In this document: positions 423-26,336 of the stretch, piece after piece
Numbering within the stretch: the first letter of the stretch is position 1
Layout: the number at the start of each line of letters is the position of its first letter
From: Longimicrobiales bacterium
GTDB lineage: Bacteria > Gemmatimonadota > Gemmatimonadetes > Longimicrobiales > Gaopeijiaceae
Reading direction: 5' to 3'
Length of the DNA stretch: 64,000 bases
NCBI GenBank assembly: GCA_965204735.1
Contig: OZ242008.1
Span: 2,816,001 to 2,880,000, forward strand
The notes under the pieces: generated by a model
Seen by the model: only the letters and a program-made list of their open reading frames with translations
Databases searched by the model: none
What the model was told of the DNA's origin: nothing
Made by a program: the position numbers and the translations under genes

Positions 423-1457
423 CTATGCCTGGTACGGTTGCCCAGACAGCACGTCGATCAGCGGGCCGTATCGAAATTGGCTACCACGCCATTCGATGAT
501 GGGTGCCATTGCCATTTCTGCGCCTGCGTTTTCCTTCAAGTACTCTGCTAACACATGTAGGCATGATTCGTCGATTGTTGCTCCAAGGTTGTCGTATAAT
601 TGCTTTCCCGATGGCGTAAGTGTGTGTGTTGGGAGATCAATTTTCTTGTCATTGTCAGCCAGTATCGCGATCGCAGTATTATCGTGAGCCATGACAAATG
701 CATGTTTAGCTCCAACCGTGTCTTCGAAACTGAAGCGTTTCCCGACATTGGATCCAGTCATTATGAGACCGTACGAGGCTAGATGAAGGATGGTACCGAA
801 ACTAGGGAAGCCGCTGATCTTGTCTGTGTATCTGTCACCACGGAGGACGAAGTCGCCAGTTACGAATCGCCCAAAATTCGCAAAATCTCTCGCGTCACGC
901 TGACTCATGTTTTTGAGAATAGACAATGTGTGCAATGATGTTCGTCCAGGCGTCTCCACTTCTCCAGATAGTATCCTAGCCCAGATCCACTGCAGCTGCT
1001 CGGACGTTACATCCTGGACATCGGCGAAGAACCGAGCCGTCCAGTCGTGGTCTACTTCGTGATCTCTCACTTCCTTTCCGTCAAGCTCTTCCGCAGCCAT
1101 CGATACGACATTGTATATGTTGCTCTGCCTCTTGCGCTCTTGAAACACGAGACGAGACTTGATTTCGTCTGCGATGATCATTTCTTCGACAACAGGTTGA
1201 CGCGCCTTGTCATGAGCTTCGCCAATCTGCTGAATAGCATTCATATGACCTCTTGCTTTGATGGCTATGGAGCCTGCTTCTGACACGGCCCCAATGCGCC
1301 GGGCATCTGCTTCGCCTGTCGCTTCAATGCGTCTTGTTTCTGCTCTCATATTTGCCGTCAACCTATCAACCACAGGCCCCGCGACCGCACCGATACCACT
1401 AGCGGTAACTTCGATCAACTTCTCTACAGCTGGTATGTTGATGTTGATGTCAGCCAT
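423..1457 (-). CDS. DUF2806-like protein inserted between mod and res
   Basis: Motifs RKRQSNI, VDHDWTARFFADVQDVTSEQLQWIWARILSGEVETPGRTSLHTL; TGATG overlap with mod stop; visibly lower GC than flanks. Confidence 0.7.
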   Translation of the reverse strand: MADININIPAVEKLIEVTASGIGAVAGPVVDRLTANMRAETRRIEATGEADARRIGAVSEAGSIAIKARGHMNAIQQIGEAHDKARQPVVEEMIIADEIKSRLVFQERKRQSNIYNVVSMAAEELDGKEVRDHEVDHDWTARFFADVQDVTSEQLQWIWARILSGEVETPGRTSLHTLSILKNMSQRDARDFANFGRFVTGDFVLRGDRYTDKISGFPSFGTILHLASYGLIMTGSNVGKRFSFEDTVGAKHAFVMAHDNTAIAILADNDKKIDLPTHTLTPSGKQLYDNLGATIDESCLHVLAEYLKENAGAEMAMAPIIEWRGSQFRYGPLIDVLSGQPYQA

Positions 1458-4018: not shown

Positions 4019-4162
4019 GCTTGCGCTCGCGCCCCAGGGGCGGGCCGTGTGTCCGATGATCGAGGCGTTCAACTTATTGGGATAGTGGGACTCCCGCAAC
4101 CATTCTGGGCGGCTCCGCTGGCCGCAGCGTGGGCTCGACGGCGAGGTGCGCGGCGTCCAGCG

Positions 4163-4279
4163 CTACCCAAGGAACGTCGTCGCCTACCCAAGAAGTGGGC
4201 CAGACTACCCAAGAAACCACCGGCCACTACCCAAGAAGCTAGCCCAGCTACCCAAGAACTTGCCCCACTACCCAAGAAA
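4163..4279 (+). repeat. Six copies of CTACCCAAG(A/G)A at 20-22 bp spacing
   Basis: Core starts at 4163, 4184, 4205, 4227, 4248, 4268 with variable linkers, in the divergent intergenic region. Confidence 0.85.
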
Positions 4280-4434
4280 TCGCACAGACACCGACCACGA
4301 CCCGGCTACGCTGTACCGTATGTCGGACCCCTTAGCTACCTTGTCCGACACTCCCACGGGCCCGCGGCCCCTCCGCCTTCGCGGTCCCGTTTGCGGGCGA
4401 CCCCGCAGGCGGACGAGGAGCGAGTGCCCGGACC

Positions 4435-7221
4435 GTGAGCGATCAGCTCTTCCACGAGGTCCTGGAAGCCACGGGCTACCTGATCGGCGGCCGACCGGCG
4501 CCCGGCGTGACCCTCGGCGAGGAGGCGACCGCCAATGGGCGTTTCCGCAGCTTCAAGCCGAATGGCAAGTGGCGGGGCGAATCGGCGCTCACGGTCTACT
4601 TCAAGCTGGAGCCCGAGCCGCCTTCCGAGGAGCGCATCGCGACGTGGCGTCGGGAGATATGGAACGAAGGACAGTCGCCCCTGCTTTGGGTGATCTCGCA
4701 GAACAAGATCAACCTCTACAACGGCTTTGCCCGGCCGCGGGACGCCGGAGACGCCAAGGCCAGTCGCCTGCGGACCTTCGCCAAGCTCGCCGGGAAACTT
4801 GAAGAACTCGACCTTGCCGGCAGATTCGCGATGGAGACGGGTCGCTTCTGGGAACACGATGCAGCCAAGAGGGTGCATCGACGAACCAGCGTCAGTCGGC
4901 AGTTGTCGTCGGACTTGGCCAGCCTCGAACGGGACCTGCTCCAAGGCGGCATGGTGCGACTTGACGCCCAAGGGCTGATCGGTCGCTCCATCTTTGTCCA
5001 GTACCTCGTCGACAGAGAGATTGCGACCCCCGAGTTCCTGAACGAGCTTTGCGGTAGGAACGCCCTGTCGGACGTGCTGCGCGACGAGCGGAGCGCCAGG
5101 CGGCTCTTCGACTGGCTCCACAACGTCTTCGATGGCGACATGTTTCCTATCAACGGCCGCCCCGACCGCCCTGAGCATCTGCGTCGCGTGGCCGACTTCC
5201 TGGACGCCGTGGACCCTCGCACAGGCCAGAGGACGCTCTTCCCCTATCAGTTCGACATCATTCCGGTCGAGCTCATCAGCTCCATCTTCGAGCAGTTCGT
5301 TCAGGCCGACCCGACCATTCGGGGCAGCGCCGGCGGGACGAACGCGCACTGCACCAGGTTGTCGCTGGTGTCGCTCGTGCTGGACGAAGTCATGGTGGAG
5401 TGCGTCGGCCACGAGACGGTGCTGGACTTGACGTGCGGCTCCGGCGTCTTTCTCGTCAAAGCGTTCCGGCGGCTGGTGACGCTTCGTGCCGGTGGGAAGC
5501 CTCCAAGTGGCCTAATGATAAGGTACGTGTTGCACGAGCAGGTTTTCGGGCTGGACATCAGCGAGGCCGCGATTAGGGTCGCAGCATTCAGCCTCTACTT
5601 GGCCGCCTTGGACCTCGATCCCAACCCGCAACCCCCCCATGCGCTGGCGTTTTGGCCCCTCATCGGCAAGACGCTGTTCGTGGGCGACGTTTGGACGGAC
5701 CAACACAAGTTGGCCGCCGCTAACCGGGGCGGGAAGTTCGACCTGATCGTGGGCAACCCTCTGTGGAGATCCATGCCGCCCTCGCGGGACGATGATGCAT
5801 CCGGCCCTCGAGGCACCAGCCTGAGATTCGTCAATAAGGCCATGAAGTACGGCTCCGACGACACCCGCCTGGGCCTGGTGCTAGGCGTACATCACTTCTT
5901 CGGACGAGCCGAGACGGCGCAGCGCGCCCTGCAGCAGATCATCGAGAAGCTGGCGCCGCTGACGCTGGTCAACCTGTCGAACCTTTCCGCATGGCTCTTC
6001 CCAAAGGCCAACATGCCCGCGATGATTCTCTTTGCCGGACACCGTAGCGATGTACCGCCCGTGATCAAGGCAGTTCAAGCACCTTGGTCGCCGGCCGGAG
6101 CAAAGAGCCACACCTTCGATCTCGCTCCCAGCGACGTCACCACGCTCCCAATCTGGGACTGGAAGCGGGACCCGCGCTTCCTCAAGGGCGCGGTCGTCGG
6201 TACCCACCGGGACCTGACCCTGGTCGACGACCTGTGGAGGGCACACGGCGAGCTGAAGGACGAACTCCAGAAGATTGGCACGAGATTCCACACAGGACTG
6301 ACGTTCCCACGCGACAAGCACATCTTTTGCGCACCTGTGTTGATCATGAGGGAGATGCTTCTGAGGCAGTACATGCCTCGCATGGTTGTAGCCGTTGCCG
6401 AGGAAGACACAGTGTATTCCAACGCCTACTTCGGCGTCGCATTTCCTCCACAGCACGAGGATGTTGCGCATCTTCTCGCTGGCATACTGAGTTCGTCGTT
6501 GGCCACTTGGTTCCTGCTCATGACGGGATCGACCCTGGGACTGGCCAATCGCCGAGTCATGTCCGCCGATGTCGCCCAGGTGCCAGTGCCCGATCTGGCG
6601 GAGGCCGCGTCCTCGGAAGTTGGCCGGTGCATCGTCGACCGGGCTCGAGAGCTGGGCGGACAGGCCGTGACCAAGGACGAGTGGCGGGCCCTCGACGAGG
6701 AGGTGTTCGAACTCTACAAGCTGCGTCCTTCGGAGCGTATTGTGGTGCGGGACGGCATGTTTCGGGCGACATGGCAGTGGGAGGCTGGCCGGGACGCATC
6801 GGTGGCGCAGGCGTCGATCAAGGACGTGGTGTGCTATGCGAAGGCGTTCGGGTCCGCCATCGACGTCTGGCTTCGAGAGAGGAACCGTCATCGAATGCGT
6901 GCGGAGGTGTTCGACCTGCCGCTTCGCGAACCGTTGCGGGTGGTGCGCTTTGTCGTGGAAGACCAGCCTGGACCATCGGTTGTCGAAGTCGTAAGTCCCG
7001 ATGGGAGCCTGAGGCAGCTGCTGGACCGGATCGGTGAACGTTTGGAGTCCTCGTTGACCAACTATCTCGTGGGTCAGCGTGAAGTTCGGGCTTACGAGTC
7101 GGGGGAAGTGGTGGTCGTGAAGCCCGCCGCCCGGAGACACTGGATGGGGGTGTGCGCCCTCGGGGACGCCGACGAAGTAATCTCCGTCAGCCTGCGAGTT
7201 CCGAAAACTCGTGAGCAGTGA
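4435..7221 (+). CDS. N-6 DNA methylase family (type IIG/Eco57I-like) protein with degenerate catalytic motif
   Basis: IPVELISSIFEQF, LDLTCGSGVFL SAM motif, FGLDIS, and FDLIVGNPLW where NPP(W/Y/F) is expected. Confidence 0.75.
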   Translation: MSDQLFHEVLEATGYLIGGRPAPGVTLGEEATANGRFRSFKPNGKWRGESALTVYFKLEPEPPSEERIATWRREIWNEGQSPLLWVISQNKINLYNGFARPRDAGDAKASRLRTFAKLAGKLEELDLAGRFAMETGRFWEHDAAKRVHRRTSVSRQLSSDLASLERDLLQGGMVRLDAQGLIGRSIFVQYLVDREIATPEFLNELCGRNALSDVLRDERSARRLFDWLHNVFDGDMFPINGRPDRPEHLRRVADFLDAVDPRTGQRTLFPYQFDIIPVELISSIFEQFVQADPTIRGSAGGTNAHCTRLSLVSLVLDEVMVECVGHETVLDLTCGSGVFLVKAFRRLVTLRAGGKPPSGLMIRYVLHEQVFGLDISEAAIRVAAFSLYLAALDLDPNPQPPHALAFWPLIGKTLFVGDVWTDQHKLAAANRGGKFDLIVGNPLWRSMPPSRDDDASGPRGTSLRFVNKAMKYGSDDTRLGLVLGVHHFFGRAETAQRALQQIIEKLAPLTLVNLSNLSAWLFPKANMPAMILFAGHRSDVPPVIKAVQAPWSPAGAKSHTFDLAPSDVTTLPIWDWKRDPRFLKGAVVGTHRDLTLVDDLWRAHGELKDELQKIGTRFHTGLTFPRDKHIFCAPVLIMREMLLRQYMPRMVVAVAEEDTVYSNAYFGVAFPPQHEDVAHLLAGILSSSLATWFLLMTGSTLGLANRRVMSADVAQVPVPDLAEAASSEVGRCIVDRARELGGQAVTKDEWRALDEEVFELYKLRPSERIVVRDGMFRATWQWEAGRDASVAQASIKDVVCYAKAFGSAIDVWLRERNRHRMRAEVFDLPLREPLRVVRFVVEDQPGPSVVEVVSPDGSLRQLLDRIGERLESSLTNYLVGQREVRAYESGEVVVVKPAARRHWMGVCALGDADEVISVSLRVPKTREQ

Positions 7222-7430
7222 TGGTACCAGACCGGGAATTCGCCGAGTCTGCGCACGCCCCCGTAGTGCTCGGCACCGAAAATGTTCGAAGCATCCTCCG
7301 CGTTGTGAAGGGCGGTTGGGTGGTCGCGACGAAGTTTGCGGACGTGACCGCGGGTGCATACGAGACGGTGCTGACGGAGCGACTCCGAGACGGAATGCGG
7401 CTGGTCGTGGACCGAGGGAGAGCTGCCCCG
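7221..7430 (+). pseudogene. Probable truncated partner gene of the N6 methylase
   Basis: TGATG coupling to the methylase stop; ~70 protein-like codons (MVPDREFAES...LTERLRDGMRLVVDRG), then the frame runs antisense into the ATPase gene as Arg/Pro-rich shadow sequence. Confidence 0.5.
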
Positions 7431-7437
7431 GCTCCCC

Positions 7438-8742
7438 TCACCCCGTCTCCCACAGCGCCCGCATCGGGACGGCGCGAAGACCCTCCCCGAAGGACACGCC
7501 CAACTCGCCGTCGTACAGCACGACGCCGCCGGCGAAGCGGGAGCCCAGCGCCGCCCGAAGCTTGCGCAGCCCACGGAAGTCGGCGCGGTTCACGGTCGCG
7601 GCGGCCTTCACTTCGACGCCCGCCACCGCACGCCCGCGCTCGACCACGATGTCCACTTCGGCGCCGTCCTTGTCACGGTAGTGGTGGAACGAGTGGGGTT
7701 CGGGATGACCGCTGGCCATTCGCCGAAGTTCCTGGCAGACGAAGGTCTCGAGGAGCTGCCCCAGCAGCGGGCGCTCGGCGGCAAGGTGGGCGGCATCCGT
7801 GCCAAGCAGCGTGCACGCCAGCCCGGTGTCGCCCAGGTGGAGCTTCGGCGTCTTGACGAGCCGCTTGAGCCTGCTTCCGTGCCAGGGCTGAATCCGGTTC
7901 AGCAGGAATACTCGCTCCAGCAACGTCACGTACTCGCCTATCGTCGCCCTGCCGACGCCGAAGGTGGACGCCAGCTTGGTCGCGTTGAAGAGCTGGGCGG
8001 TGGCGGATGCGGCCACGGACAGCAGCTTCGGCAAGGCGTCCAGGTGGCGGATGCGGGCCAGGTCCCGCACGTCTCGCGCCACGATGGTCTCCACGTAGCT
8101 CCGGTACCATTCGGTGCGCCAGCGGCCCTTGGGGCGCACGAGAGCGGCCGGATACCCGCCGGCGACGATCCGCTCCGCAAGCTCGGCGCCCAGCCTCTCG
8201 GCGACCTGGAAGTCGGGTCCGCCGCCGAAGATGGCGTCGAGGAACCCCACGTTGGGCTGGGTCGGCCCGCTCCGGACGGCTCGGCCTGGAGACGCCGACG
8301 GCCCCGGCTCCGGTCGCCCCAGCTCCGCCTGCGACAGCGGGTGCAGCCGAAGGACATGCATCCGTCCTGCCAGCGAGTCCGAGAGCCTCGGGACCAGCAG
8401 GACGTTGGACGAGCCCGTGAGGATGAAGCGGCCCGGGGTCCGCCGGCGGTCGATTGCAACCTTCAGCGCCGCGAAAAGCCCGGGCACGCGCTGCACTTCG
8501 TCCAGCACGACCCGCTCCGGCAGGTCGGACAGAAAGCCAGCGGGGTCGGCCTCCGCCGTCAGGCGCGCCACGTCGTCGTCAAAGCTCACGTAGGAGTAGC
8601 CCAAGGGACCGCCGACGGACCGTGCCAGGGTCGTCTTGCCGCACTGGCGGGGGCCGTGGACCAGCACAGCGGGCGAGTAGGCCAGCGCGTCGGCGAGCGG
8701 CTGGGCGGCGTGGCGTGGGTAGAGGTCGGTGTGGGGGGTCAT
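7438..8742 (-). CDS. AAA_14 ATPase with DUF4143 C-terminal domain
   Basis: GPRQCGKTT Walker A, VLDEVQ Walker B, ILTGSS, GGYP, KTPKLHLGDTGL, EVDIVVE...VEVK; start placed at MTPHTDLYPR. Confidence 0.9.
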   Translation of the reverse strand: MTPHTDLYPRHAAQPLADALAYSPAVLVHGPRQCGKTTLARSVGGPLGYSYVSFDDDVARLTAEADPAGFLSDLPERVVLDEVQRVPGLFAALKVAIDRRRTPGRFILTGSSNVLLVPRLSDSLAGRMHVLRLHPLSQAELGRPEPGPSASPGRAVRSGPTQPNVGFLDAIFGGGPDFQVAERLGAELAERIVAGGYPAALVRPKGRWRTEWYRSYVETIVARDVRDLARIRHLDALPKLLSVAASATAQLFNATKLASTFGVGRATIGEYVTLLERVFLLNRIQPWHGSRLKRLVKTPKLHLGDTGLACTLLGTDAAHLAAERPLLGQLLETFVCQELRRMASGHPEPHSFHHYRDKDGAEVDIVVERGRAVAGVEVKAAATVNRADFRGLRKLRAALGSRFAGGVVLYDGELGVSFGEGLRAVPMRALWETG

Positions 8743-9029
8743 CGGCTGATCGGCCTGAACCTTGGACACGAGGGGTTCGGGTTGTCCCCGGCGGAACTTC
8801 GGCTGATCGTAAGGTAATACTTCGGCTAATCGTCTGTTTTGGGACGAACTGGTCACGTGGCGGTCGTGTTTGTGGCTTTATGTAGTTGTCTTTGGGAATC
8901 GGCCAATCGTCAGTCGTATATGCGTCGATTCGTCCTGTTTCCGATCGGCCGGGGGACCCAGCCGCTCGACGGCGACCCGCGGTCCGGGCAGCCGCCGACA
9001 GCGGAGAGAGCTTATTACTATTAGCTGGG

Positions 9030-9821
9030 TTAGCTCGCGAGCCGGGCGATCAACTCCGCGACCGTGTCGCATTCGATGATGGCATCCGCCGCCGCGTCCA
9101 GCTCGTCGCGTCCGTCCAGGCCGCCGATCACGCCCGACAACTGCACGACCGCGTCCGCACCGAACTTCTGGGCCACTTGGCGCTCCAAGACAGTCCTGGA
9201 TCCCTCCCGGTGGCCTTCCCGGTGACCTTCCCGGCGGCCCTCGTCCCGCAGCCTTGCCTTCTCTTCTTCGATCTGCGTGTACATGTCTCTTGCCTCCGTC
9301 AAGTTGGTGATCTTCGACAGCTCCTCTTCCGAACAGCCCCAACTCCGCGCCGCGCCCACCGCCCACAGCACGAACGCCTGCGCGATCCCAGCGTGCTCGG
9401 GACCCGGGTACGCCTCCAACACCTCGTCCAGCACGGCCCGGACCTTCTCCGTGCCACCGTCCCGCTCAAGCTCCCTCAACCAAGTCAGGATGCGCCGCTT
9501 CCGCAAGTTTCGCCTGGGCGGCGCGCGCATGTCAAGCACATGATAGGGCAGCCGGGGCGAGAGGTCGCGCAGTTGGGGCAGCGTGGGCGAGATCAAGTCG
9601 GCGATGTCGAGGCGGGCGTCCCACGGGTGGGGGCCGTTGTGGACCACGCAGGCGACGACGGGCGGCAGCCGGTAGTCGGCGTCGGACGGCTTCTCGCGGA
9701 TCAGGTTCTCGTAGACGTCGGTCACGTAGCGGAGGACGCGGGCGGGCATGGAGGGCGAGTTCGTCGTCCCAGTCGCGTGCGAGTAGGCGGCGTGGCGTGG
9801 GTAGAGGTCGGCGTGGGTCAT
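9030..9821 (-). CDS. Truncated Rpn copy D (ATPase-like N-terminal peptide fused in frame to Rpn C-terminal part; no catalytic motif)
   Basis: MTHADLYPRHAA... joined to MPARVLRYV by a 143-bp deletion; internal GGAGG-8nt-ATG at 9284. Confidence 0.6.
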   Translation of the reverse strand: MTHADLYPRHAAYSHATGTTNSPSMPARVLRYVTDVYENLIREKPSDADYRLPPVVACVVHNGPHPWDARLDIADLISPTLPQLRDLSPRLPYHVLDMRAPPRRNLRKRRILTWLRELERDGGTEKVRAVLDEVLEAYPGPEHAGIAQAFVLWAVGAARSWGCSEEELSKITNLTEARDMYTQIEEEKARLRDEGRREGHREGHREGSRTVLERQVAQKFGADAVVQLSGVIGGLDGRDELDAAADAIIECDTVAELIARLAS

Positions 9822-9897
9822 CGGCTGCTCGACTCGACCCTGGACGCGACCCGCAAGCCCGGGGCCGTCCCTGACAGCGGGAGAGATCTTGGCTGGG

Positions 9898-10605
9898 CTA
9901 GCTCGCGAGCCGGGCGATCAACTCCGCGACCGTGTCGCATTCGATGATGGCATCCGCCGCCGCGTCCAGCTCGTCGCGTCCGTCCAGGCCGCCGATCACG
10001 CCCGACAACTGCACGACCGCGTCCGCACCGAACTTCTGGGCCACTAGGCGCTCCAAGACAGTCCTGGATCCCTCCCGGCGGCCCTCCCGGTGACCCTCGT
10101 CCCGCAGCCTTGCCTTCTCTTCTTCGATCTGCGTGTACATGTCTCTTGCCTCCGTCAAGTTGGTGATCTTCGACAGCTCCTCTTCCGAACGGCCCCAACT
10201 CCGCGCCGCGCCCACCGCCCACAGCACGAACGCCTGCGCGATCCCAGCGTGCTCGGGACCCGGGTACGCCTCCAACACCTCGTCCAGCACGGCCCGGACC
10301 TTCTCCGTGCCACCGTCCCGCTCAAGCTCCCTCAACCAAGTCAGGATGCGCCGCTTCCGCAAGTTTCGCCTGGGCGGCGCGCGCATGTCAAGCACATGGT
10401 AAGGCAGCCGGGGCGAGAGGTCGCGCAGCTGGGGCAGCGTGGGCGAGATCAAGTCGGCGATGTCGAGGCGGGCGTCCCACGGGTGGGGGCCGTTGTGGAC
10501 CACGCAGGCGACGACGGGCGGCAGCCGGTAGTCGGCGTCGGACGGCTTCTCGCGGATCAGGTTCTCGTAGACGTCGGTCACGTAGCGGAGGACACGGACG
10601 GGCAT
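9898..10605 (-). CDS. Truncated Rpn copy C (catalytic EFQS segment deleted)
   Basis: Same as intact gene from MP(V)RVLRYV onward except one fewer REGH repeat; internal RBS+ATG at 10140. Confidence 0.6.
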   Translation of the reverse strand: MPVRVLRYVTDVYENLIREKPSDADYRLPPVVACVVHNGPHPWDARLDIADLISPTLPQLRDLSPRLPYHVLDMRAPPRRNLRKRRILTWLRELERDGGTEKVRAVLDEVLEAYPGPEHAGIAQAFVLWAVGAARSWGRSEEELSKITNLTEARDMYTQIEEEKARLRDEGHREGRREGSRTVLERLVAQKFGADAVVQLSGVIGGLDGRDELDAAADAIIECDTVAELIARLAS

Positions 10606-10815
10606 GTCGGCCTGTCGGCGATCGAGCTGGGGGCCGACATGCTCGGGGTTGAGCTTGCGCGCCGACTCCAGGGCGAGTTCGTGGTCCCAGTCGCATGCGA
10701 GTAGGCGGCGTGGCGTGGGTAGAGGTCGGCGTGGGTCATCGGCTGCTCGGCTCGACCCTGGACGCGACCCGCAAGCCCGGGGCCGTCCCCGACAGCGGGA
10801 GAGATCTTGGCTGGG

Positions 10816-11535
10816 CTAGCTCGCGAGCCGGGCGATCAACTCCGCGACCGTGTCGCATTCGATGATGGCATCCGCCGCCGCGTCCAGCTCGTCGCGTCCG
10901 TCCAGGCCGCCGATCACGCCCGACAACTGCACGACCGCGTCCGCACCGAACTTCTGGGCCACTAGGCGCTCCAAGACAGTCCTGGATCCCTCCCGGTGGC
11001 CTTCCCGGTGACCTTCCCGGCGGCCCTCGTCCCGCAGCCTTGCCTTCTCTTCTTCGATCTGCGTGTACATGTCTCTTGCCTCCGTCAAGTTGGTGATCTT
11101 CGACAGCTCCTCTTCCGAACGGCCCCAACTCCGCGCCGCGCCCACCGCCCACAGCACGAACGCCTGCGCGATCCCAGCGTGCTCGGGACCCGGGTACGCC
11201 TCCAACACCTCGTCCAGCACGGCCCGGACCTTCTCCGTGCCACCGTCCCGCTCAAGCTCCCTCAACCAAGTCAGGATGCGCCGCTTCCGCAAGTTTCGCC
11301 TGGGCGGCGCGCGCATGTCAAGCACATGGTAAGGCAGCCGGGGCGAGAGGTCGCGCAGCTGGGGCAGCGTGGGCGAGATCAAGTCGGCGATGTCGAGGCG
11401 GGCGTCCCACGGGTGGGGGCCGTTGTGGACCACGCAGGCGACGACGGGCGGCAGCCGGTAGTCGGCGTCGGACGGCTTCTCGCGGATCAGGTTCTCGTAG
11501 ACGTCGGTCACGTAGCGGAGGACACGGGCGGGCAT
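10816..11535 (-). CDS. Truncated Rpn copy B (catalytic EFQS segment deleted)
   Basis: Same as the C-terminal 239 aa of the intact gene; internal RBS+ATG at 11070. Confidence 0.6.
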   Translation of the reverse strand: MPARVLRYVTDVYENLIREKPSDADYRLPPVVACVVHNGPHPWDARLDIADLISPTLPQLRDLSPRLPYHVLDMRAPPRRNLRKRRILTWLRELERDGGTEKVRAVLDEVLEAYPGPEHAGIAQAFVLWAVGAARSWGRSEEELSKITNLTEARDMYTQIEEEKARLRDEGRREGHREGHREGSRTVLERLVAQKFGADAVVQLSGVIGGLDGRDELDAAADAIIECDTVAELIARLAS

Positions 11536-11745
11536 GTCGGCCTGTCGGCGATCGAGCTGGGGGCCGACATGCTCGGGGTTGAGCTTGCGCGCCGACTCCA
11601 GGGCGAGTTCGTGGTCCCAGTCGCATGCGAGTAGGCGGCGTGGCGTGGGTAGAGGTCGGCGTGGGTCATCGGCTGCTCGGCTCGACCCTGGACGCGACCC
11701 GCAAGCCCGGGGCCGTCCCCGACAGCGGGAGAGATCTTGGCTGGG

Positions 11746-12000
11746 CTAGCTCGCGAGCCGGGCGATCAACTCCGCGACCGTGTCGCATTCGATGATGGCA
11801 TCCGCCGCCGCGTCCAGCTCGTCGCGTCCGTCCAGGCCGCCGATCACGCCCGACAACTGCACGACCGCGTCCGCACCGAACTTCTGGGCCACTAGGCGCT
11901 CCAAGACAGTCCTGGATCCCTCCCGGTGGCCTTCCCGGTGACCTTCCCGGCGGCCCTCGTCCCGCAGCCTTGCCTTCTCTTCTTCGATCTGCGTGTACAT
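11746..12000 (-). CDS. Putative in-frame small C-terminal protein (RpnS-like antitoxin, 84 aa, MYTQIEEEKARL...)
   Basis: GGAGG at 12013-12009 lies 8 nt upstream of the in-frame ATG at 12000, just before the REG repeats, matching the known RpnL/RpnS arrangement. Confidence 0.6.
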   Translation of the reverse strand: MYTQIEEEKARLRDEGRREGHREGHREGSRTVLERLVAQKFGADAVVQLSGVIGGLDGRDELDAAADAIIECDTVAELIARLAS

Positions 12001-12753
12001 GTCTCTTGCCTCCGTCAAGTTGGTGATCTTCGACAGCTCCTCTTCCGAACGGCCCCAACTCCGCGCCGCGCCCACCGCCCACAGCACGAACGCCTGCGCG
12101 ATCCCAGCGTGCTCGGGACCCGGGTACGCCTCCAACACCTCGTCCAGCACGGCCCGGACCTTCTCCGTGCCACCGTCCCGCTCAAGCTCCCTCAACCAAG
12201 TCAGGATGCGCCGCTTCCGCAAGTTTCGCCTGGGCGGCGCGCGCATGTCAAGCACATGGTAAGGCAGCCGGGGCGAGAGGTCGCGCAGCTGGGGCAGCGT
12301 GGGCGAGATCAAGTCGGCGATGTCGAGGCGGGCGTCCCACGGGTGGGGGCCGTTGTGGACCACGCAGGCGACGACGGGCGGCAGCCGGTAGTCGGCGTCG
12401 GACGGCTTCTCGCGGATCAGGTTCTCGTAGACGTCGGTCACGTAGCGGAGGACACGGGCGGGCATGGAGCGGTCGACCCGGGACTGGAACTCGAGGAGCA
12501 GGACCAAGAATCCGGGCCGGTGTCGGAAGTCGACGCGCCAGAGCATGTCGGCCTGTCGGCGATCGAGCTGGGGGCCGACGTGCTCGGGGTTGAGCTTGCG
12601 CGCCGACTCCAGGGCGAGTTCGTCGTCCCAGTCGCATGCGAGGTAGTCTTCAAAGAGTTCGACGATGGTGGGGGCATGGGAGAAGAAGAACTTGTAGACC
12701 TCGTCGTGCTTGCGACGGGGGAGGCAGAGCAGGTCAACGTGGGAGTCGGGCAA
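11746..12753 (-). CDS. rpn: Rpn/YhgA family PD-(D/E)xK nuclease (Transposase_31), intact copy A
   Basis: HDEVYKFFFSH, RRQADMLWRV, LLLEFQSRVDRSMPARVLRY, LPPVVACVVHNG..PW, REG repeats, DUF4351-like tail; AGGAGG 7 nt before TTG at 12753. Confidence 0.88.
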   Translation of the reverse strand: MPDSHVDLLCLPRRKHDEVYKFFFSHAPTIVELFEDYLACDWDDELALESARKLNPEHVGPQLDRRQADMLWRVDFRHRPGFLVLLLEFQSRVDRSMPARVLRYVTDVYENLIREKPSDADYRLPPVVACVVHNGPHPWDARLDIADLISPTLPQLRDLSPRLPYHVLDMRAPPRRNLRKRRILTWLRELERDGGTEKVRAVLDEVLEAYPGPEHAGIAQAFVLWAVGAARSWGRSEEELSKITNLTEARDMYTQIEEEKARLRDEGRREGHREGHREGSRTVLERLVAQKFGADAVVQLSGVIGGLDGRDELDAAADAIIECDTVAELIARLAS

Positions 12754-12906
12754 CGGGAGGCCTCCTGTAGGGCGCGGTGGGGTTGCGGAGGCCCTTGGGG
12801 GGCGCTCCGAGCCCGGGGGAATGGCCGGGCCGGAAGAAGTATGCATCCGGAGAATGGGCGTTTGGATAGCTGGATCGGCCTTTCTTCGCGAACCGATAAG
12901 CCATAT

Positions 12907-12928
12907 CATTGAGTGATTTTACTCAATG
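12907..12928. promoter_or_regulatory. AT-rich palindromic operator candidate CATTGAGT-N6-ACTCAATG
   Basis: Perfect 8-bp inverted arms between divergent rpn and ATPase genes. Confidence 0.55.
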
Positions 12929-12966
12929 GACTTCCCTTGCAACCGAATCTCCACTACCTTCCTGCC

Positions 12967-14208
12967 ATGAACACCTTCGAGAGACGCCACGTCGCGGAAG
13001 TGCTCGACCTGCTGGACATGGGCGAGTCGGCCCCGATCGTGGCCGTCGTCGGCCCCCGGCAGACCGGCAAGACCACGATCGTGCGCCACGCCCTGCGAAC
13101 CCTGCGACGAGGGCGCATCTCCGGCTGGCACATCGCGGTCGACGACCCCGACGCCGACGAACCGGCCCCATGGCCCAGCGGTCGGGGAAGGCGCGACGCG
13201 GAGTGGCTGGTCAGCGTCTGGCGGGCCGCCCGAGAGGAGGCGCGATTGAACGAGCGGGGGTTCGTCCTGGCGCTCGACGAAGTGCAGCACGTGAAGGACT
13301 GGTCGCGAGTGGTGAAGGGACTGTGGGACCGGGACCGGGAGGAGGGCCGTCGGCTGCGCGTGATCGTGCTGGGCTCCGCTCCGTGGGACATGCTCACTGG
13401 AATCGGCGAGAGCCTGGTGGGCCGCTTCATGCCGGTGCACGTCCGGCAGTGGTCGCTGCGGGAGATGGCCGCCTTCGACTACTCCATGGACGACTACCTG
13501 TACTTCGGCGGCTACCCGCGCGCGGCTCGATGGAGGCGGAACTGGGTCGACTGGTGCCGGTACATCGTGGAGTCGATCGTCAAGCCGACGATCGGCAAGG
13601 ACATCCTCTCGCTCACGAGAGTCGACAAGCCTGCCTTGCTGCAACAGCTGATGGAGCTGATTCCCCGCTACTCGGGTCAGATTCTTTCCTACAACAAGAT
13701 GCTCGGCCCGCTGCAGGACGCCGGCAACACGACGACTCTGGCCCACTACCTGGAGCTGCTGGGAAACGCCGGACTGGCAGCGGGGCTGTCCAAGTACCCG
13801 CGCGCAGGCGGACGAGGATCAAGCCCCAAGCTGAACGTCCTCGACCCGGCGATCATGACGGCGATGCTGGGGTACGCTCCCGACGAGGCCAAGGCCGACA
13901 AGACGCTCTGGGGCAGAGTCGTGGAGAGCGCCGTCGGGGCTCATCTTCACAACACGCTTCCGCCAGCGGCGACGCTGCACTACTGGCGGCACGGCAACCG
14001 GGAAGTGGACTTCGTGCTGGCGCGAGGTCCCAGCGTGCTCGGACTCGAAGTGAAGAGCGGTCGGACGCATGGGACATCGAAAGGCCTCCAGGCATTCAAG
14101 GAACGTTTCCCGAAGTCCCGGACGCTGCTTGTCGGAGGCGGCGGGGTGCCCCTCGACGAATTCCTGTGGGAGCCAGCGTCCTACTGGCTGGAAGAGGGAT
14201 GGGTGTGA
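12967..14208 (+). CDS. AAA_14 ATPase with DUF4143 domain
   Basis: GPRQTGKTT, LALDEVQ, VLGSA, FGGYP, SSPKLNVLDP, EVDFVL...LEVKSG; start could be GTG 12913. Confidence 0.9.
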   Translation: MNTFERRHVAEVLDLLDMGESAPIVAVVGPRQTGKTTIVRHALRTLRRGRISGWHIAVDDPDADEPAPWPSGRGRRDAEWLVSVWRAAREEARLNERGFVLALDEVQHVKDWSRVVKGLWDRDREEGRRLRVIVLGSAPWDMLTGIGESLVGRFMPVHVRQWSLREMAAFDYSMDDYLYFGGYPRAARWRRNWVDWCRYIVESIVKPTIGKDILSLTRVDKPALLQQLMELIPRYSGQILSYNKMLGPLQDAGNTTTLAHYLELLGNAGLAAGLSKYPRAGGRGSSPKLNVLDPAIMTAMLGYAPDEAKADKTLWGRVVESAVGAHLHNTLPPAATLHYWRHGNREVDFVLARGPSVLGLEVKSGRTHGTSKGLQAFKERFPKSRTLLVGGGGVPLDEFLWEPASYWLEEGWV

Positions 14209-17200
14209 TCGTTCCGCGCACCGTGACGACGGTCGAGCCAGACGCGAGCCCAGGCCGCCGCTCGAAGCTGTCCGACTTCCGGGACGAACGCTTCTACGTG
14301 CTGCTGGGGAGCCCCGGAGCGGGGAAGACGACCGCTTTCAAGGCGGAGGCGGGGCACGTTGACGACTCCCTCTACCTGACGGCACGCCAGGTGGTTCGCT
14401 CCCACACCCGCCCGAGGTCGGAATGGCGGGAAAAGACCTTGTTCATCGACGGGCTGGACGAGGTGCGGGCGGGGAAACACGACGTGCGCGAGCCTCTCGA
14501 CTGCATCCTCGACTGCCTGGTCCGATTGGACGGCCCTCGCGCCAGGCTCTCCTGCCGTTCGGCGGCGTGGCTGACCACAAGCGACATCGAAGCCATCAGC
14601 TCGGTCCCGGGCTACGAGCGTATGTGGGTGTTGCAGCTTGACCCGCTGACGGCAGGGGATGTGCGGGAGATCCTTGATCATCGCTTGGGGAAGGCCGCCT
14701 ACGGCTTCTTCGAGGTAGCGCACAGCAGAAGGTTGCACGGCCTTCTCGACAACCCGCTGTCGCTCGAGATGCTGGTGAAGGCGATGGGCAAGGGCAACGA
14801 GTGGCCCGAGAGCCGGGTCGAGACCTTTGAGCAGGCGTGCCTCGCACTGGCCACCGAGGTCAACGACGAGCACCGAACTGCTGTCCGCTACGCGACGGTT
14901 CAGGAGAAGGGACCACCCGTTCCGCCCCTCCGAGTCCTCGACGCGGCCAGTCGCATAGCGGCTCTGTACCTGCTCGCGGACAAGGACGGGATCGCGTGGG
15001 ACCGCTCCGACGTAGACGATCCAGACAGCGTGCTGCTGATCAGCGAGACCTCCGACTGCGACCGCCGCTCGACGAGGCAGGCATGGGAATCGGCTCTCTT
15101 TGTGCCGCAACGGTCGATGCGTGGCTGGCCCCACGGGCTGCTGGCGCTGAGCGACGACGAGGAACCTTCGATTCCGCAGCCGCCGCCCGGTGCCCACATC
15201 CCCATGCACGAGCATGTGGCCGCGTACTTGGCCGCCCGCCACTTGGAGAAGGCCGTCGCGGGAACCGCGGTCCTGCCCCGCGTGTTGAGTCTGCTGACGG
15301 CCGGAGGCGGCGTGCCCTCCCCCTTCAGAGGCGTAGCAGCTTGGTTGGCCGCGCTCTGCCCCGACGCCAGGCGGCTTCTGATCGACCTCGATCCGGTGGG
15401 CGTAGTGGCCTACGGCGACATCGGCGTCTTCGACGACGACGAGAAGGCGCACGTACTGGACCGACTTTCCGCGCACGCCGGTCCAAGCTCCAATCCTTGG
15501 ACCCTGCCGTACACCGCGCTGGGCGGCTTGGTGACTCCACGAACCATGAACGACCTGCGGCGCTGCATGAACGGAAACAGCCGCTCCGAGACCGTCCAGC
15601 AAGCCATGGCGCTGCTCCTGCGCGGGGTTGCAGCGGCCCCCTTGCGGTGCGGCGACCAAGTCTCGGGCAAGGAGCTGCTGGCGACGGCGCGAGACTCGAC
15701 GTGGTCCCCGTCGGTGCGCAACGCTGCTCTTGCCACCGCGATCGAGCTTCCCGACAACTCAGAGGAGGTCGCGATGAGGCTGCAGCTTCTGAAGGACATA
15801 AACGCGGGCAAGGTGGACGACCCCGGGGGCGACCTCCGAGCGTACCTGTTCCGCGACCTGTATCCGGGCCAACTTCCGCCGAAGGAGGCGTGGGACTACC
15901 TGCCGATCCCCGTCAATTCGATTATCGGAGCCCAGCTCTCTCAGTCGTCGCCCAGGCACTGTGGCCAGCTGCTCAACTCCCTGCACGCCCGGGTGACTCA
16001 ACTCGACTACATGTGGGACATCTCCCTGGAAGACCTGGCCTGGGAGCTGCTGGAGCGGGCGATCGAAACAGATGGCGGGAGCGTTCAAGTCGAAAAGTTG
16101 TACAACTGGATCGAACTCGCCGCCTTCAACTGGGGAGCCGGCATGTGGAGCCACAGGCCGCCCGACAACGAAATCCATGCGCGGTTTGGCGGCATGGACC
16201 CGGTGCACACGGTCCAACAGTGGCTGGCCAATCATCCAACAGTTCAGAAGGAACTACTCGTCACCTTCCTTCATCGGCATGCACATAAACAAAAGATAGA
16301 CCTTGCCTCCCAGGCGATGGAGTTTCGGCAGACCGTCTTCGGCGCCGGCCAGCCGGACGACTTCCATGAGTGGTGCTTCCAGCGGGCATCGGCGATGTCG
16401 GCGGAGTTCGAGAACCCCGCCCGATGGCTGGTCACATGTGCCGTCGAGCCCCGTCGCCGCTCGAGGTCGGCGGACGAGTGGTTGCCGACTGCGCTTCGGC
16501 GGGTGGACGACGACCCGGTCCTTGTCGATCAGCTCAGGGCACTTGCCGAGCACGATAGGGAGAGGCGACGCAGGGAGATGCAGTACCGCACTCGACGGCC
16601 GAAGAGGAAGGCGACTCTGGCCAGCCATGTCCTGGAGCACCGGGACGCGCTGCTGAAGGGCGCAGGCCCCGAAGAACTTCTTGTCGAGCTTGGCCGGGCC
16701 TACTTCGGCGACTTCGGCGAAGACCCCGTCGACGGCGCGGGCCGGTTGCGCGCCAAGCTGGCATCGGACGACAACGCCATCGACGTTGCGCTGAATGCGC
16801 TCGCGCGCGTGCCCACCGGCGGGGCCGGCCCCGACATCCCAGAGATCATGAAGCTCGACGGCGAGCGACGGTTCGCCGTTTGGGCGCTGCCGTTTCTGGC
16901 AGGCTTGGACGTCATGGCGCGCAGAGGGGCGGATGTTCCCGGGATCCTGGGCGAAGGTCTCGAACGGGCGGCTTGGTGCTACCTTGCCACGCCGCTGAAC
17001 GACCCAGAGATGCCCGGGTGGTTTGCCGATCTGCTGGAGTCGCATGCGGAGATGGTCGCCACGGTCTTTGTGAAGCTCCACCGCAATCGCATCCGATCCA
17101 AGCAAGACGACAGCGCCCTGCTGCCGACGGACGAACGCTACCGTCATGTGGCGCGGCTCGCGCTGCCCGATCTGCTCAAAGCGTTTCCGGCCAAGGGATA

Positions 17201-18422
17201 CGGCACTCAGCTGCTGCTTCTTCGACAGGTACTGGTTGCGGCGATCCTCCATGTGCCCGAGGAGGTGGCGCCGCGTGTTCGGGACAGGATGACCGTTCGC
17301 AAGATGAACGGAGCCCAGCGCATCACTTGGCTGGGCGCGGGCGTCGCAGTCGCGCCCAGCGAATTCGTTTCCGACGCCGTCGCCTTCGTCGAGAAGGGCA
17401 GACCCGCTCGTGGCAAGCACCTGGTGGACGTTCTGCACGCCGTCTGGGAGGCGCAGGAGGCGTACGACGGCGGACCTCTGTTCGACGCCGCCACGGAGCC
17501 CGCGGCCGTCGCCTCGCTTGTGAGCACCCTGGGCCGGAGGCACCGCCCCTTCTGGTCTGGAGTCGAGGGCGGGATTGGAGGATACACTGTGCTGGACAAT
17601 GCCAGCACCTTGGTCGAACACATGATCCTCGGATGCCTTGCCGACAACCCTACTCCCGCTGCTAGCCTTGAGCTGGACCGCCTGTCCAAAGACAGCGGCC
17701 TCAAGGAGTGGCACAACACGCTCAGGGAAGGCCTGGAGCGACAGCTGGAGCTGCGCTACAGCACGGAGCACAGCATTCCGACCGTCGAAGAAGTCGAATA
17801 CGTGCTCCGCGACGGACCGCCCGCAAGCGCCGCCGACCTCACGGCCCTGGTCGTGGACCGGCTGGAGCGCCTGGCAAGGGATATCCGTGATTCGAGCACG
17901 GACGACTGGCAGCAGTACTGGAACGAAGACAAGGGCAGGAAGAACGAGCGGCGCCCGCCGTGGCCGAAGGACGAGAACTCATGCCGAAACGCTCTGCTGT
18001 CGGCCCTCCGCCGGCGTCTGCCGAGCGGCGTGGACGCCCGTCGTGAGGCCAGCTACGCGGAGGAGGCGCGTGCAGACATCCGGGTGTGCTTCGGCTCCCA
18101 TGCGATCCCGATCGAGATCAAGAAGAGCAGCCATCGGGAGCTGTGGAGCGCGATGCGGAAGCAGTTGATGGCAAAGTACACGCGCGATCCCGAATCGGCG
18201 GGACACGGCGTGTACGTGGTCCTCTGGTTTGGCTCGGGCGGCCCCGAGCCGGCCAAGACCCCGCCGACCGGATCGCGCCCCAAGAGCCCCGACGAGCTGG
18301 CGCGCCGCCTGAAGGAAGACCTTTCGGAAGCCGAGCGGCTTCAGATCAAGATCGTCGTGGTCGACGTGAGCCGTCCTGCGACCGTCGTCGCTGGCGGGGG
18401 CCGTTCAGCGCGGCGCCGATGA
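14199..18422 (+). CDS. Large NACHT/STAND NTPase with helical repeats and C-terminal PD-(D/E)xK-like nuclease domain
   Basis: LLGSPGAGKTT Walker A, LFIDGLDE Walker B, RLSCR sensor, NPLSLEML, C-terminal RADIRV...PIEIKK...QL..KY. ORF-track part upstream of 14199 is shadow of the ATPase gene. Confidence 0.8.
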   Translation: MGVIVPRTVTTVEPDASPGRRSKLSDFRDERFYVLLGSPGAGKTTAFKAEAGHVDDSLYLTARQVVRSHTRPRSEWREKTLFIDGLDEVRAGKHDVREPLDCILDCLVRLDGPRARLSCRSAAWLTTSDIEAISSVPGYERMWVLQLDPLTAGDVREILDHRLGKAAYGFFEVAHSRRLHGLLDNPLSLEMLVKAMGKGNEWPESRVETFEQACLALATEVNDEHRTAVRYATVQEKGPPVPPLRVLDAASRIAALYLLADKDGIAWDRSDVDDPDSVLLISETSDCDRRSTRQAWESALFVPQRSMRGWPHGLLALSDDEEPSIPQPPPGAHIPMHEHVAAYLAARHLEKAVAGTAVLPRVLSLLTAGGGVPSPFRGVAAWLAALCPDARRLLIDLDPVGVVAYGDIGVFDDDEKAHVLDRLSAHAGPSSNPWTLPYTALGGLVTPRTMNDLRRCMNGNSRSETVQQAMALLLRGVAAAPLRCGDQVSGKELLATARDSTWSPSVRNAALATAIELPDNSEEVAMRLQLLKDINAGKVDDPGGDLRAYLFRDLYPGQLPPKEAWDYLPIPVNSIIGAQLSQSSPRHCGQLLNSLHARVTQLDYMWDISLEDLAWELLERAIETDGGSVQVEKLYNWIELAAFNWGAGMWSHRPPDNEIHARFGGMDPVHTVQQWLANHPTVQKELLVTFLHRHAHKQKIDLASQAMEFRQTVFGAGQPDDFHEWCFQRASAMSAEFENPARWLVTCAVEPRRRSRSADEWLPTALRRVDDDPVLVDQLRALAEHDRERRRREMQYRTRRPKRKATLASHVLEHRDALLKGAGPEELLVELGRAYFGDFGEDPVDGAGRLRAKLASDDNAIDVALNALARVPTGGAGPDIPEIMKLDGERRFAVWALPFLAGLDVMARRGADVPGILGEGLERAAWCYLATPLNDPEMPGWFADLLESHAEMVATVFVKLHRNRIRSKQDDSALLPTDERYRHVARLALPDLLKAFPAKGYGTQLLLLRQVLVAAILHVPEEVAPRVRDRMTVRKMNGAQRITWLGAGVAVAPSEFVSDAVAFVEKGRPARGKHLVDVLHAVWEAQEAYDGGPLFDAATEPAAVASLVSTLGRRHRPFWSGVEGGIGGYTVLDNASTLVEHMILGCLADNPTPAASLELDRLSKDSGLKEWHNTLREGLERQLELRYSTEHSIPTVEEVEYVLRDGPPASAADLTALVVDRLERLARDIRDSSTDDWQQYWNEDKGRKNERRPPWPKDENSCRNALLSALRRRLPSGVDARREASYAEEARADIRVCFGSHAIPIEIKKSSHRELWSAMRKQLMAKYTRDPESAGHGVYVVLWFGSGGPEPAKTPPTGSRPKSPDELARRLKEDLSEAERLQIKIVVVDVSRPATVVAGGGRSARRR

Positions 18423-26085: not shown

Positions 26086-26336
26086 GCGACGGGGGGCTGG
26101 GTTCCCGCGGGCCGCTGGGTCCGACCGACGGGGGTCTGGGGTTCCCGCGGGCCGCTGGGGTCCGACCGACAGGGTCCGGGGTTCCCTGCGGGCCGCTGGG
26201 GTCCGGGGTTCCCGCGGGCCGCTGGGGTCCGACCGACGGGGTCCGGGGTTCCCTGCAGGCCGCTGGGGTCCGACCGACGGGGGTCCGGGGTTCCCGCGGG
26301 CCGCTGGAGTCCGACCGACGGGGGGTCCGGGGTTCT
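26086..26336 (+). repeat. ~40-bp GC-rich tandem repeat (GGGGTTCCCGCGGGCCGCTGGGGTCCGACCGACGGGGGTCC), ~6 units
   Basis: GTTC cores at 26101, 26141, 26181, 26208, 26248, 26290, 26332; no unique spacers. Confidence 0.9.

What the first reader, a model, noticed from the sequence alone, without database searches (positions are those of the whole stretch)
9030..12770. Rpn nuclease followed by a tandem array of catalytically disarmed copies that all keep an internal antitoxin start
Seen: one intact Rpn/YhgA gene (TTG 12753 to 11746) and three tandem partial copies. Copies B and C carry an exact 81-bp deletion between GCATG microhomologies (12463/12544 in the intact gene), removing LWRVDFRHRPGFLVLLLEFQSRVDRSM. 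Copy D carries a different 143-bp deletion (12468-12610) that removes both RQADM and EFQS. All four keep GGAGG-8nt-ATG (12000, 11070, 10140, 9284) opening an 80-84 aa C-terminal ORF with variable REGH repeat number and an L/Q variant. Known: Rpn proteins have been described as toxic anti-phage nucleases neutralised by an in-frame, separately initiated C-terminal RpnS. Inference: a one-toxin / four-antitoxin module, an expandable antitoxin or decoy array that could tune the trigger threshold or supply variant C-termini by recombination.
Basis: partly seen in the sequence, partly recalled or inferred. Interest (0 to 1): 0.85.

Follow-up and report, generated by a model that had tools for sequence, protein, structure and literature searches.

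The report
Expandable spare-antitoxin array behind Rpn nuclease
A toxic anti-phage nuclease gene in a sponge-associated bacterium is followed by three near-identical broken copies that have lost the cutting site but keep the built-in start of its likely antidote protein; this is an expanded, strain-variable form of an arrangement already described in E. coli.

Summary
One intact rpn gene (A) is followed by three 3'-partial copies. B and C carry an 81-bp core deletion, D an independent 143-bp one, and all keep the SD+ATG of the C-terminal ORF. The array is not an assembly artefact: its junctions occur in contigs from other studies, with depths fitting 2 to 4 units.

Every copy is also cut at codon 38, so it had already lost the start and catalytic D17. 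Each is fused to a diverged copy of the next gene's 5' end. The genome holds 22 intact rpn genes.

The internal start is well supported, and a model places RpnS on RpnL's repeat helix. The junction DNA is old while the rpn bodies are 99-100% identical, and tail alleles swap between copies across strains, which points to recombinational homogenisation.

Most likely these are extra, matched RpnS antitoxin cassettes, the same kind as E. coli rpnE-ypaA (Zhong 2023). Neutral duplication debris remains a strong rival: only 2 of 10 other partial rpn copies in this genome keep RpnS. Expression is untested.

The parts
11746..12753 (-). Copy A: intact rpn (RpnL, 335 aa, TTG start); D17, D69, E88, Q90, R100 correspond by order and spacing to RpnA D11, D63, E82, Q84, R94
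12761..12766 (-). AGGAGG SD site of copy A (duplex energy -10.3)
11746..12013 (-). Internal SD (12013-12009) and ATG 12000: predicted RpnS of A, 84 aa
12462..12547 (-). Segment between GCATG microhomologies; 81 bp of it are missing in B and C (removes E88, Q90)
12468..12610 (-). 143 bp missing in D (removes D69, E88, Q90)
11632..11745 (-). Inter-unit junction 1: shortened, diverged copy of the rpn-ATPase spacer plus the ATPase gene's first codons (ATG 11669)
10816..11631 (-). Copy B: rpn from codon 38, 81-bp core deletion, RpnS ORF 11070-10816 identical to A's
10702..10815 (-). Inter-unit junction 2 (identical to junction 1)
9898..10701 (-). Copy C: as B, RpnS ORF 10140-9898 with one 4-aa repeat fewer (80 aa)
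9784..9897 (-). Inter-unit junction 3; its ATG 9821 is in frame with the rest of D (263-aa nuclease-less ORF)
9030..9783 (-). Copy D: rpn from codon 38, 143-bp core deletion, RpnS ORF 9284-9030 (L286Q)
8743..9029 (-). Full-length original spacer between rpn and the ATPase gene (template of the junction copies)
7438..8742 (-). Downstream AAA_14/DUF4143 ATPase (PADLOC PDC-S01), whose 5' end was co-duplicated
12246..12251 (-). TTGACA inside the gene, kept in all four copies (11321, 10391, 9535): candidate -35 of an internal promoter, unproven; the consensus scan found no promoter

Best explanation
The locus is an intact Rpn nuclease gene followed by three tandem, nuclease-dead partial copies that likely serve as extra sources of its matching small antitoxin (RpnS). 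Shown: the anatomy, loss of the start codon and catalytic residues in B-D, the conserved internal SD+start, the junctions in other strains, and two different core deletions. Inferred history: one microhomology-joined tandem duplication (codon 38 of rpn to the start of the next gene; shared CTCGC) made a copy that was dead from birth. Its now useless core was lost twice independently. Unequal homologous crossing-over has since changed unit number (about 2 to 4) and kept the tails matched to A. Inferred function, by analogy with E. coli: RpnS made from each copy would bind the repeat helix of RpnL (predicted model) and raise the antitoxin-to-toxin ratio, protecting against leak of A and possibly of look-alike paralogues and raising the trigger threshold. 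C, one repeat short, would probably not match A.
For: Internal start: strongest SD of 23 in-frame starts scored in A (-9.5, next -6.4); M in 14 and V in 2 of the 16 closest sequences; 22 of 22 intact rpn genes in the genome have an SD (-8.2 or stronger) plus ATG/GTG before the repeat helix. The tail resembles DUF4351-like and stand-alone 77-85 aa clusters (cosine 0.95). Complex model RpnL+RpnS: score 0.66, best of 3 controls 0.09; the mark was reached by 116 of 157 solved and 2 of 215 mismatched pairs; contacts agree >=90%, partner pLDDT >=83; interface at residues 263-291, the repeat helix (it may reflect likeness to the solved RpnAS dimer). Persistence: truncated-copy junction sequence is in all 7 runs laid (6 studies, one possibly the source) although recA is present. 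Age versus identity: junction DNA matches its template at 38/45 and 45/50 with gaps, less than the template matches the sister species (50/53, 64/68), while the rpn bodies are 99-100% identical. Recurrence: the orthologous locus of sister species G002 has an intact gene plus a partial copy with a different junction, a frameshift upstream and an intact RpnS (L021). G003 has two more such pairs (L040, L043), one trimmed to SD+RpnS a few bases after the upstream stop; pN/pS 0.22, 0.13, 0.54. In G001-G003, 9 of 9 single-break full-length copies are broken upstream of the C-terminal ORF (chance about 0.04-0.06). Defence-island context.
Against: No expression data, and no promoter found for B-D. At 99-100% identity, ORF retention in B-D cannot itself show selection, and the upstream 465 bp stay open too. 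Only 2 of 10 other non-intact rpn copies in this genome keep an intact RpnS, and 2 of 5 downstream partial copies in relatives (L023, L024) have it broken. All 7 runs may descend from a recent common ancestor, so persistence is not independent evidence. The L040 downstream copy is closer to other paralogues (94-95%) than to its upstream gene (90%), so its pN/pS may reflect its donor. A carries its own RpnS, so a need for more is not obvious. Toxicity and phage defence are known only for E. coli Rpn proteins, which are distant (the NCBIfam RpnA model scores far below cut-off).
Confidence: 0.52

Rival explanations
1. Neutral birth-and-death debris. Tandem duplications of rpn genes are frequent here; copies that lose the nuclease are harmless, recombination keeps them identical to A for a while, and any RpnS they make is incidental.
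For: The genome has 22 intact and 13 non-intact rpn copies, including a second array at 3.16-3.17 Mb with decayed tails. 8 of 10 non-intact copies outside this array lack an intact RpnS. The 5' cut already inactivates the gene, so the core deletions need no selection. 12-bp repeats would slip on their own (general knowledge).
Against: The junction is older than the body identity implies, yet a 720-bp direct repeat has not been seen collapsed in any of 7 runs. A precisely trimmed SD+RpnS copy exists in G003. There is a weak deficit of breaks within RpnS (9 of 9 upstream).
Confidence: 0.3
2. Specificity reservoir. The copies are silent donor cassettes or orphan antitoxins whose tails differ in repeat number and sequence; recombination swaps them into A, or their products neutralise paralogous or incoming RpnL alleles of other repeat number. 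D may also make a 263-aa nuclease-less decoy from the borrowed ATPase start.
For: L/Q phase differs between assemblies: here A=L, D=Q; the A-type P0002 has Q and one repeat fewer, and the D-type P0011 has L and a paralogue-like tail. In X5 one contig at double depth carries Q. Downstream copies in L021, L040 and L043 each have one 4-aa block more than the upstream gene. Repeat mismatch abolished neutralisation for E. coli RpnC. Three intact genes at 3.168-3.172 Mb join a distant nuclease (about 35%) to a tail 68-80% like A's.
Against: B is identical to A, so it stores no variant. Allele swaps and repeat slippage are expected by-products of any tandem repeat. In X5 the copies appear identical. 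D's upstream ATG has a weak SD (-2.7; the ATPase's own is -2.5), and frame restoration has a 1-in-3 chance.
Confidence: 0.15
3. Assembly artefact: one or two real copies multiplied or scrambled by the assembler.
For: A and B are identical over 721 bp; no contig laid spans the array.
Against: Copies carry private differences. Both deletion junctions are bridged in another study's contigs, and contig depths in X3 (8.6 shared body, 6.0 spacer, 4.9 B/C junction, 2.0 D junction, 2.1 flank) fit 4:3:2:1:1 (the tool warns that depth is not a copy number).
Confidence: 0.02

Closest known systems
E. coli rpnE-ypaA and rpnC with a downstream second rpnCS copy (Zhong et al. 2023, PMC10327210/PMC10400941)
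   Same: Intact rpn followed by a separate downstream copy of its own C-terminal small-protein region, derived from the upstream gene; internal SD+start; 4-aa repeat variation.
   Different: Here the extra units are 754-816 bp gene remnants (not a trimmed small gene), number three, carry two independent core deletions and a piece of the next gene, and appear to vary in number among strains. The tail is 80-84 aa and DUF4351-like rather than about 49 aa. No function is tested.
Tandem rpn arrays (Parabacteroides sp. Marseille, Zhong et al. Fig. S1B legend)
   Same: Array made by tandem direct duplication rather than transposition.
   Different: The legend describes repeated rpn genes; whether some lack the nuclease core could not be seen (figure not held). 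Here only the first unit is intact.
RpnL/RpnS toxin-antitoxin family (PF04754 with C-terminal DUF4351/PF14261-like tail)
   Same: PD-(D/E)XK residues D17/D69/E88/Q90/R100, internal start, repeat helix predicted as the binding surface, defence-island location.
   Different: Distant subfamily found closely only in this species and one sister species among the genomes searched; toxicity and phage defence untested.
Orphan toxin-tip/immunity modules of Rhs and CDI systems (recalled, no call)
   Same: 5'-truncated copies downstream of a full gene that could recombine into it.
   Different: There the cassettes hold different toxin tips; here they hold near-identical antitoxin tails and no toxin activity.

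Membership tests
Rpn/YhgA (PF04754) RpnL | Transposase_31 domain above the Pfam cut-off | tested here: met
   73.2 bits vs 21, E=2.8e-20. TIGR01784 33 bits, below its cut-off of 52.1.
Rpn/YhgA (PF04754) RpnL | Catalytic D, D, E, Q, R residues (RpnA D11, D63, E82, Q84, R94) in copy A | tested here: met
   D17, D69, E88, Q90, R100 invariant or >=90% conserved in 61 sequences; RpnA numbering, matched by order and spacing, not by direct alignment.
Rpn/YhgA (PF04754) RpnL | The same catalytic set in copies B-D | tested here: not met
   All lack D17; B/C lack E88, Q90; D lacks D69, E88, Q90.
Rpn/YhgA (PF04754) RpnL | PD-(D/E)XK fold | tested here: inconclusive
   Model pLDDT 83.7; the N-terminal domain's best matches are restriction/repair endonucleases but weak: Foldseek E>=0.098, VIA Z 7.3, rmsd 2.8, 101 aligned to 2vld.
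RpnL/RpnS gene-within-gene toxin-antitoxin | Internal in-frame SD + start before the repeat helix | tested here: met
   Sequence level only.
RpnL/RpnS gene-within-gene toxin-antitoxin | Variable 4-aa repeats 8-20 residues after the small protein's start | tested here: met
   REGx repeats from about residue 13-16; number varies among copies and strains.
RpnL/RpnS gene-within-gene toxin-antitoxin | RpnS binds RpnL | tested here: inconclusive
   Model supports but does not show it: 0.66 vs best control 0.09; 116/157 solved and 2/215 mismatched pairs reach the mark.
RpnL/RpnS gene-within-gene toxin-antitoxin | RpnS is expressed, RpnL is toxic without it, and the pair blocks phage | not testable with these tools
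   Needs experiments; no RNA run was listed.
rpn with downstream extra rpnS (rpnE-ypaA type) | Downstream small-protein copy closest to its own upstream gene | tested here: met
   Tails of B, C, D are 99-100% identical to A and at most 92% to any other sequence compared.
rpn with downstream extra rpnS (rpnE-ypaA type) | Downstream copy is translated | not testable with these tools
   SD+ATG intact; no data on transcription.

The most novel reading that the evidence does not exclude
An accordion of antitoxin cassettes: selection keeps nuclease-dead rpn copies behind the active gene, recombination tunes their number (antitoxin dose, hence trigger threshold), and copies one repeat longer or shorter act as orphan antitoxins or donors for other repeat-number specificities among the genome's 22 Rpn toxins. 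The arrangement has arisen several times independently in this sponge-symbiont genus.
Probability: 0.2. Interest if true: 0.65.

Novelty: new variant of a known kind. Interest (0 to 1): 0.38.

Why it matters
How extra rpnS copies arise and what the 4-aa repeat variation is for are open questions named by Zhong et al.. This locus gives a natural series: an identical tail (B), a minus-one-repeat tail (C), a point variant (D), and strains that seem to carry 2 to 4 units, plus independent parallels in two sister species. It captures a probable intermediate between a duplicated gene and a trimmed ypaA-like antitoxin gene, and allows a direct test of dose versus specificity. If the copies are silent, it is an ordinary decaying duplication.

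Tried and rejected
Transposon or IS reading: the junction is a tandem duplication that includes the next gene's start; no terminal inverted repeats among the 25 longest inverted pairs shown (of 29). D as an extension of the B/C deletion: rejected. Promoter/terminator consensus scan: none found, uninformative at 69% GC. No RNA holder listed. No relative found in metagenome contigs (129 pattern hits, 0 confirmed) or viral contigs. PDB sequence search: no hit below E=0.22. PADLOC has no match for A. The C-terminal ORF has no Pfam hit by itself; PF14261 matches 16 other places in the genome but not this array. Three look-ups of earlier findings returned nothing. Cluster membership of P0002/P0011 could not be looked up, so their lying on one contig is inferred only from the equal contig length 570,723. 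Uncovered stretches in low-depth run X14 were not interpreted. Literature searches listed no paper on core-deleted tandem rpn copies; most subscription journals are outside the library.
Full report
1. Observation. The array is as described. Copy A is a 335-aa ORF (TTG 12753, SD AGGAGG) matching PF04754. B, C and D follow on the same strand. B and C miss 81 bp between GCATG repeats at 12462 and 12543; D misses 143 bp (12468-12610). All four have GGAGG-8nt-ATG opening 84, 84, 80 and 84 aa. A and B are identical over 721 bp; A and D differ at 7 of 724. D is not an extension of the B/C deletion: it keeps A's base at 12624 and its junction is explained by a 2-nt microhomology in the intact gene.

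2. Every copy begins at codon 38 of rpn. Upstream lies a 114-bp piece made of the two ends of the rpn-ATPase spacer and the first codons of the downstream AAA_14/DUF4143 gene. By inspection the junction reads as ATPase DNA with a 3-bp and a 24-bp loss, joined to rpn through a shared CTCGC. The unit is therefore a tandem duplication from inside rpn to inside the next gene. In RpnA, D11A, D63A, E82A and Q84K abolished all phenotypes (PMC5350276, passages); the matching residues here are D17, D69, E88 and Q90. The 5' cut removes the start and D17, so the copies were dead before the core deletions. In D the deletion puts the borrowed ATG in frame with the remainder (263 aa), but its SD is weak (-2.7), as is the ATPase's own (-2.5).

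3. Host and context. The closest relatives are Longimicrobiales MAGs and several holders of the DNA are sponge metagenomes. The genome is one 4.14-Mb contig with 22 intact rpn genes and 13 non-intact copies including B-D. The neighbours are two PDC-S01 ATPases, an EruA-like NACHT protein (below cut-off), and type IIG and type III restriction-modification-like genes.

4. Real and polymorphic. Seven of the 23 listed runs (six studies) were laid, all as contigs. X3 bridges both deletion junctions, with depths fitting four units. The 5' junction is joined in X5, X6, X8 and X14 (32-40 letters on the short side); the 143-bp form is in X5, X6 and X8 (26-32 letters) and the 81-bp form in X14 (24 letters, weaker). 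Depths fit two units in X5 (61 A-only, 68 junction, 113 shared) and about three in X8 (24.5, 50.9, 65). The tool warns that depth is not a copy number, X1 may be the source sample, and no contig spans the array.

5. Homogenisation. The junction piece matches its template at 38/45 and 45/50 with gaps, whereas the template matches the sister species at 50/53 and 64/68. The rpn bodies are 99-100% identical to A, which is 88.6% identical to the sister orthologue. An old junction with young-looking bodies indicates repeated recombination among units; recA is present. Allele phase agrees. Here A has L286 and D has Q; the A-type protein P0002 has Q and one repeat fewer, and the D-type P0011 has L. 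In X5 a single double-depth contig differs from our A at 9 of 327 bases, including both of D's amino-acid alleles. This shows exchange, not its purpose.

6. The internal gene. Codon 252 has the strongest SD of 23 in-frame starts scored in A. It is M or V in all 16 closest sequences, and all 22 intact paralogues carry an SD plus ATG/GTG before the repeat helix. The AlphaFold model (pLDDT 83.7) has a long helix 246-273 followed by a helical bundle. A complex model of RpnL with RpnS scored 0.66 against a best control of 0.09 (mark reached by 116 of 157 solved and 2 of 215 mismatched pairs; contacts agree >=90%; partner pLDDT >=83), with the interface on the repeat helix, residues 263-291. This supports binding, does not show it, and may echo the solved RpnAS dimer.

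7. Are the extra tails selected? For: the orthologous locus in G002 (synteny) has its own partial copy with another junction, an upstream frameshift and an intact 88-aa RpnS. G003 has two more pairs, one trimmed to SD+ORF right after the upstream stop. pN/pS against the upstream gene is 0.22 (3 synonymous, 2 non-synonymous), 0.13 (16, 6) and 0.54 (11.5, 16.5), and each downstream copy has one 4-aa block more. Nine of nine single-break full-length copies in G001-G003 break upstream of the C-terminal ORF (about 0.04-0.06 by length; only 52 of 60 and 52 of 57 candidates were scored in G002 and G003). Against: 2 of 5 downstream partial copies in relatives have a broken tail (L023, L024). In G000, searched without bias, only 2 of 10 non-intact copies outside this array keep RpnS. 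The L040 copy is closer to other paralogues than to its neighbour. Regions of G001-G003 were chosen from hits, which favours intact tails, so I give no pooled count. The evidence leans to selection but is not decisive.

8. Mechanism. Most likely (0.52): extra matched antitoxin, with dose changing by unequal crossing-over. Rivals: neutral debris (0.30), specificity reservoir or decoy (0.15), artefact (0.02). Shown: anatomy, residue loss, junctions in other strains, recurrence. Predicted: binding. Inferred: expression, toxicity, dose effect, phage role.

9. Prior knowledge. Zhong et al. (PMC10327210; parts 1-3 of 4 read; supplement passages) report RpnL/RpnS, repeat-dependent specificity, tandem rpn arrays, and second rpnS copies downstream of rpnE and rpnC that arose independently from the upstream gene. 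Koonin's commentary (PMC10400984, whole text) notes the second copy and suggests regulatory flexibility. Figures and Dataset S1 were not seen and may list similar loci. Five searches (listings only for other papers) found no description of core-deleted multi-unit arrays. Verdict: a real, modest variant of a known arrangement and a good natural test case; interest 0.38.

Noticed in passing
G000:C1:3161400-3172600 (outside the window): Second rpn array: one close paralogue, several decayed or chimeric copies, and three intact genes whose nuclease is about 35% identical to A but whose tail is 68-80% identical, with different repeat counts (114, 98, 94 aa tails); suggests tail swapping between subfamilies.
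   Followed up: partly
L043:2052-2318 (G003:C1 near 3252100): RpnS-only gene starting with its own SD a few bases after the stop of an intact rpn, 91% identical to that gene's tail: a ypaA-like end state.
   Followed up: partly
L021, L023, L024 (G002): Three close paralogues are each followed by a remnant of A positions about 166-233 (two then continue into 3' rpn sequence), all lacking EFQS; points to an older core-less downstream copy that spread with the gene.
   Followed up: partly
window 11746-9898 (-): A's TAG stop is in frame with the open frames of B and then C, so stop read-through would give a protein with repeated tails; P0001 (569 aa) from another assembly is such a fusion, by frameshift.
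   Followed up: no
window 11746-12753 (-): Third-codon composition flips from 64% C in the first 167 codons to 60% G in the next 84, near the internal TTGACA.
   Followed up: no
window 1457-18422: Defence island: type III methyltransferase-like gene, type IIG-like gene, two PDC-S01 ATPases pointing away from the array, and an EruA-like NACHT gene (690 bits, cut-off 1000).
   Followed up: partly
G000:C1:279122-281107 (outside the window): Array of 17 tRNA genes in 2 kb on one strand.
   Followed up: no
window 62747-63994: 384-bp tandem repeat, 3.2 copies, 72% matches, probably a repeated domain of a large surface protein.
   Followed up: no
window 26087-26335: Cluster of nested 26-108 bp GC-rich tandem repeats.
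   Followed up: no
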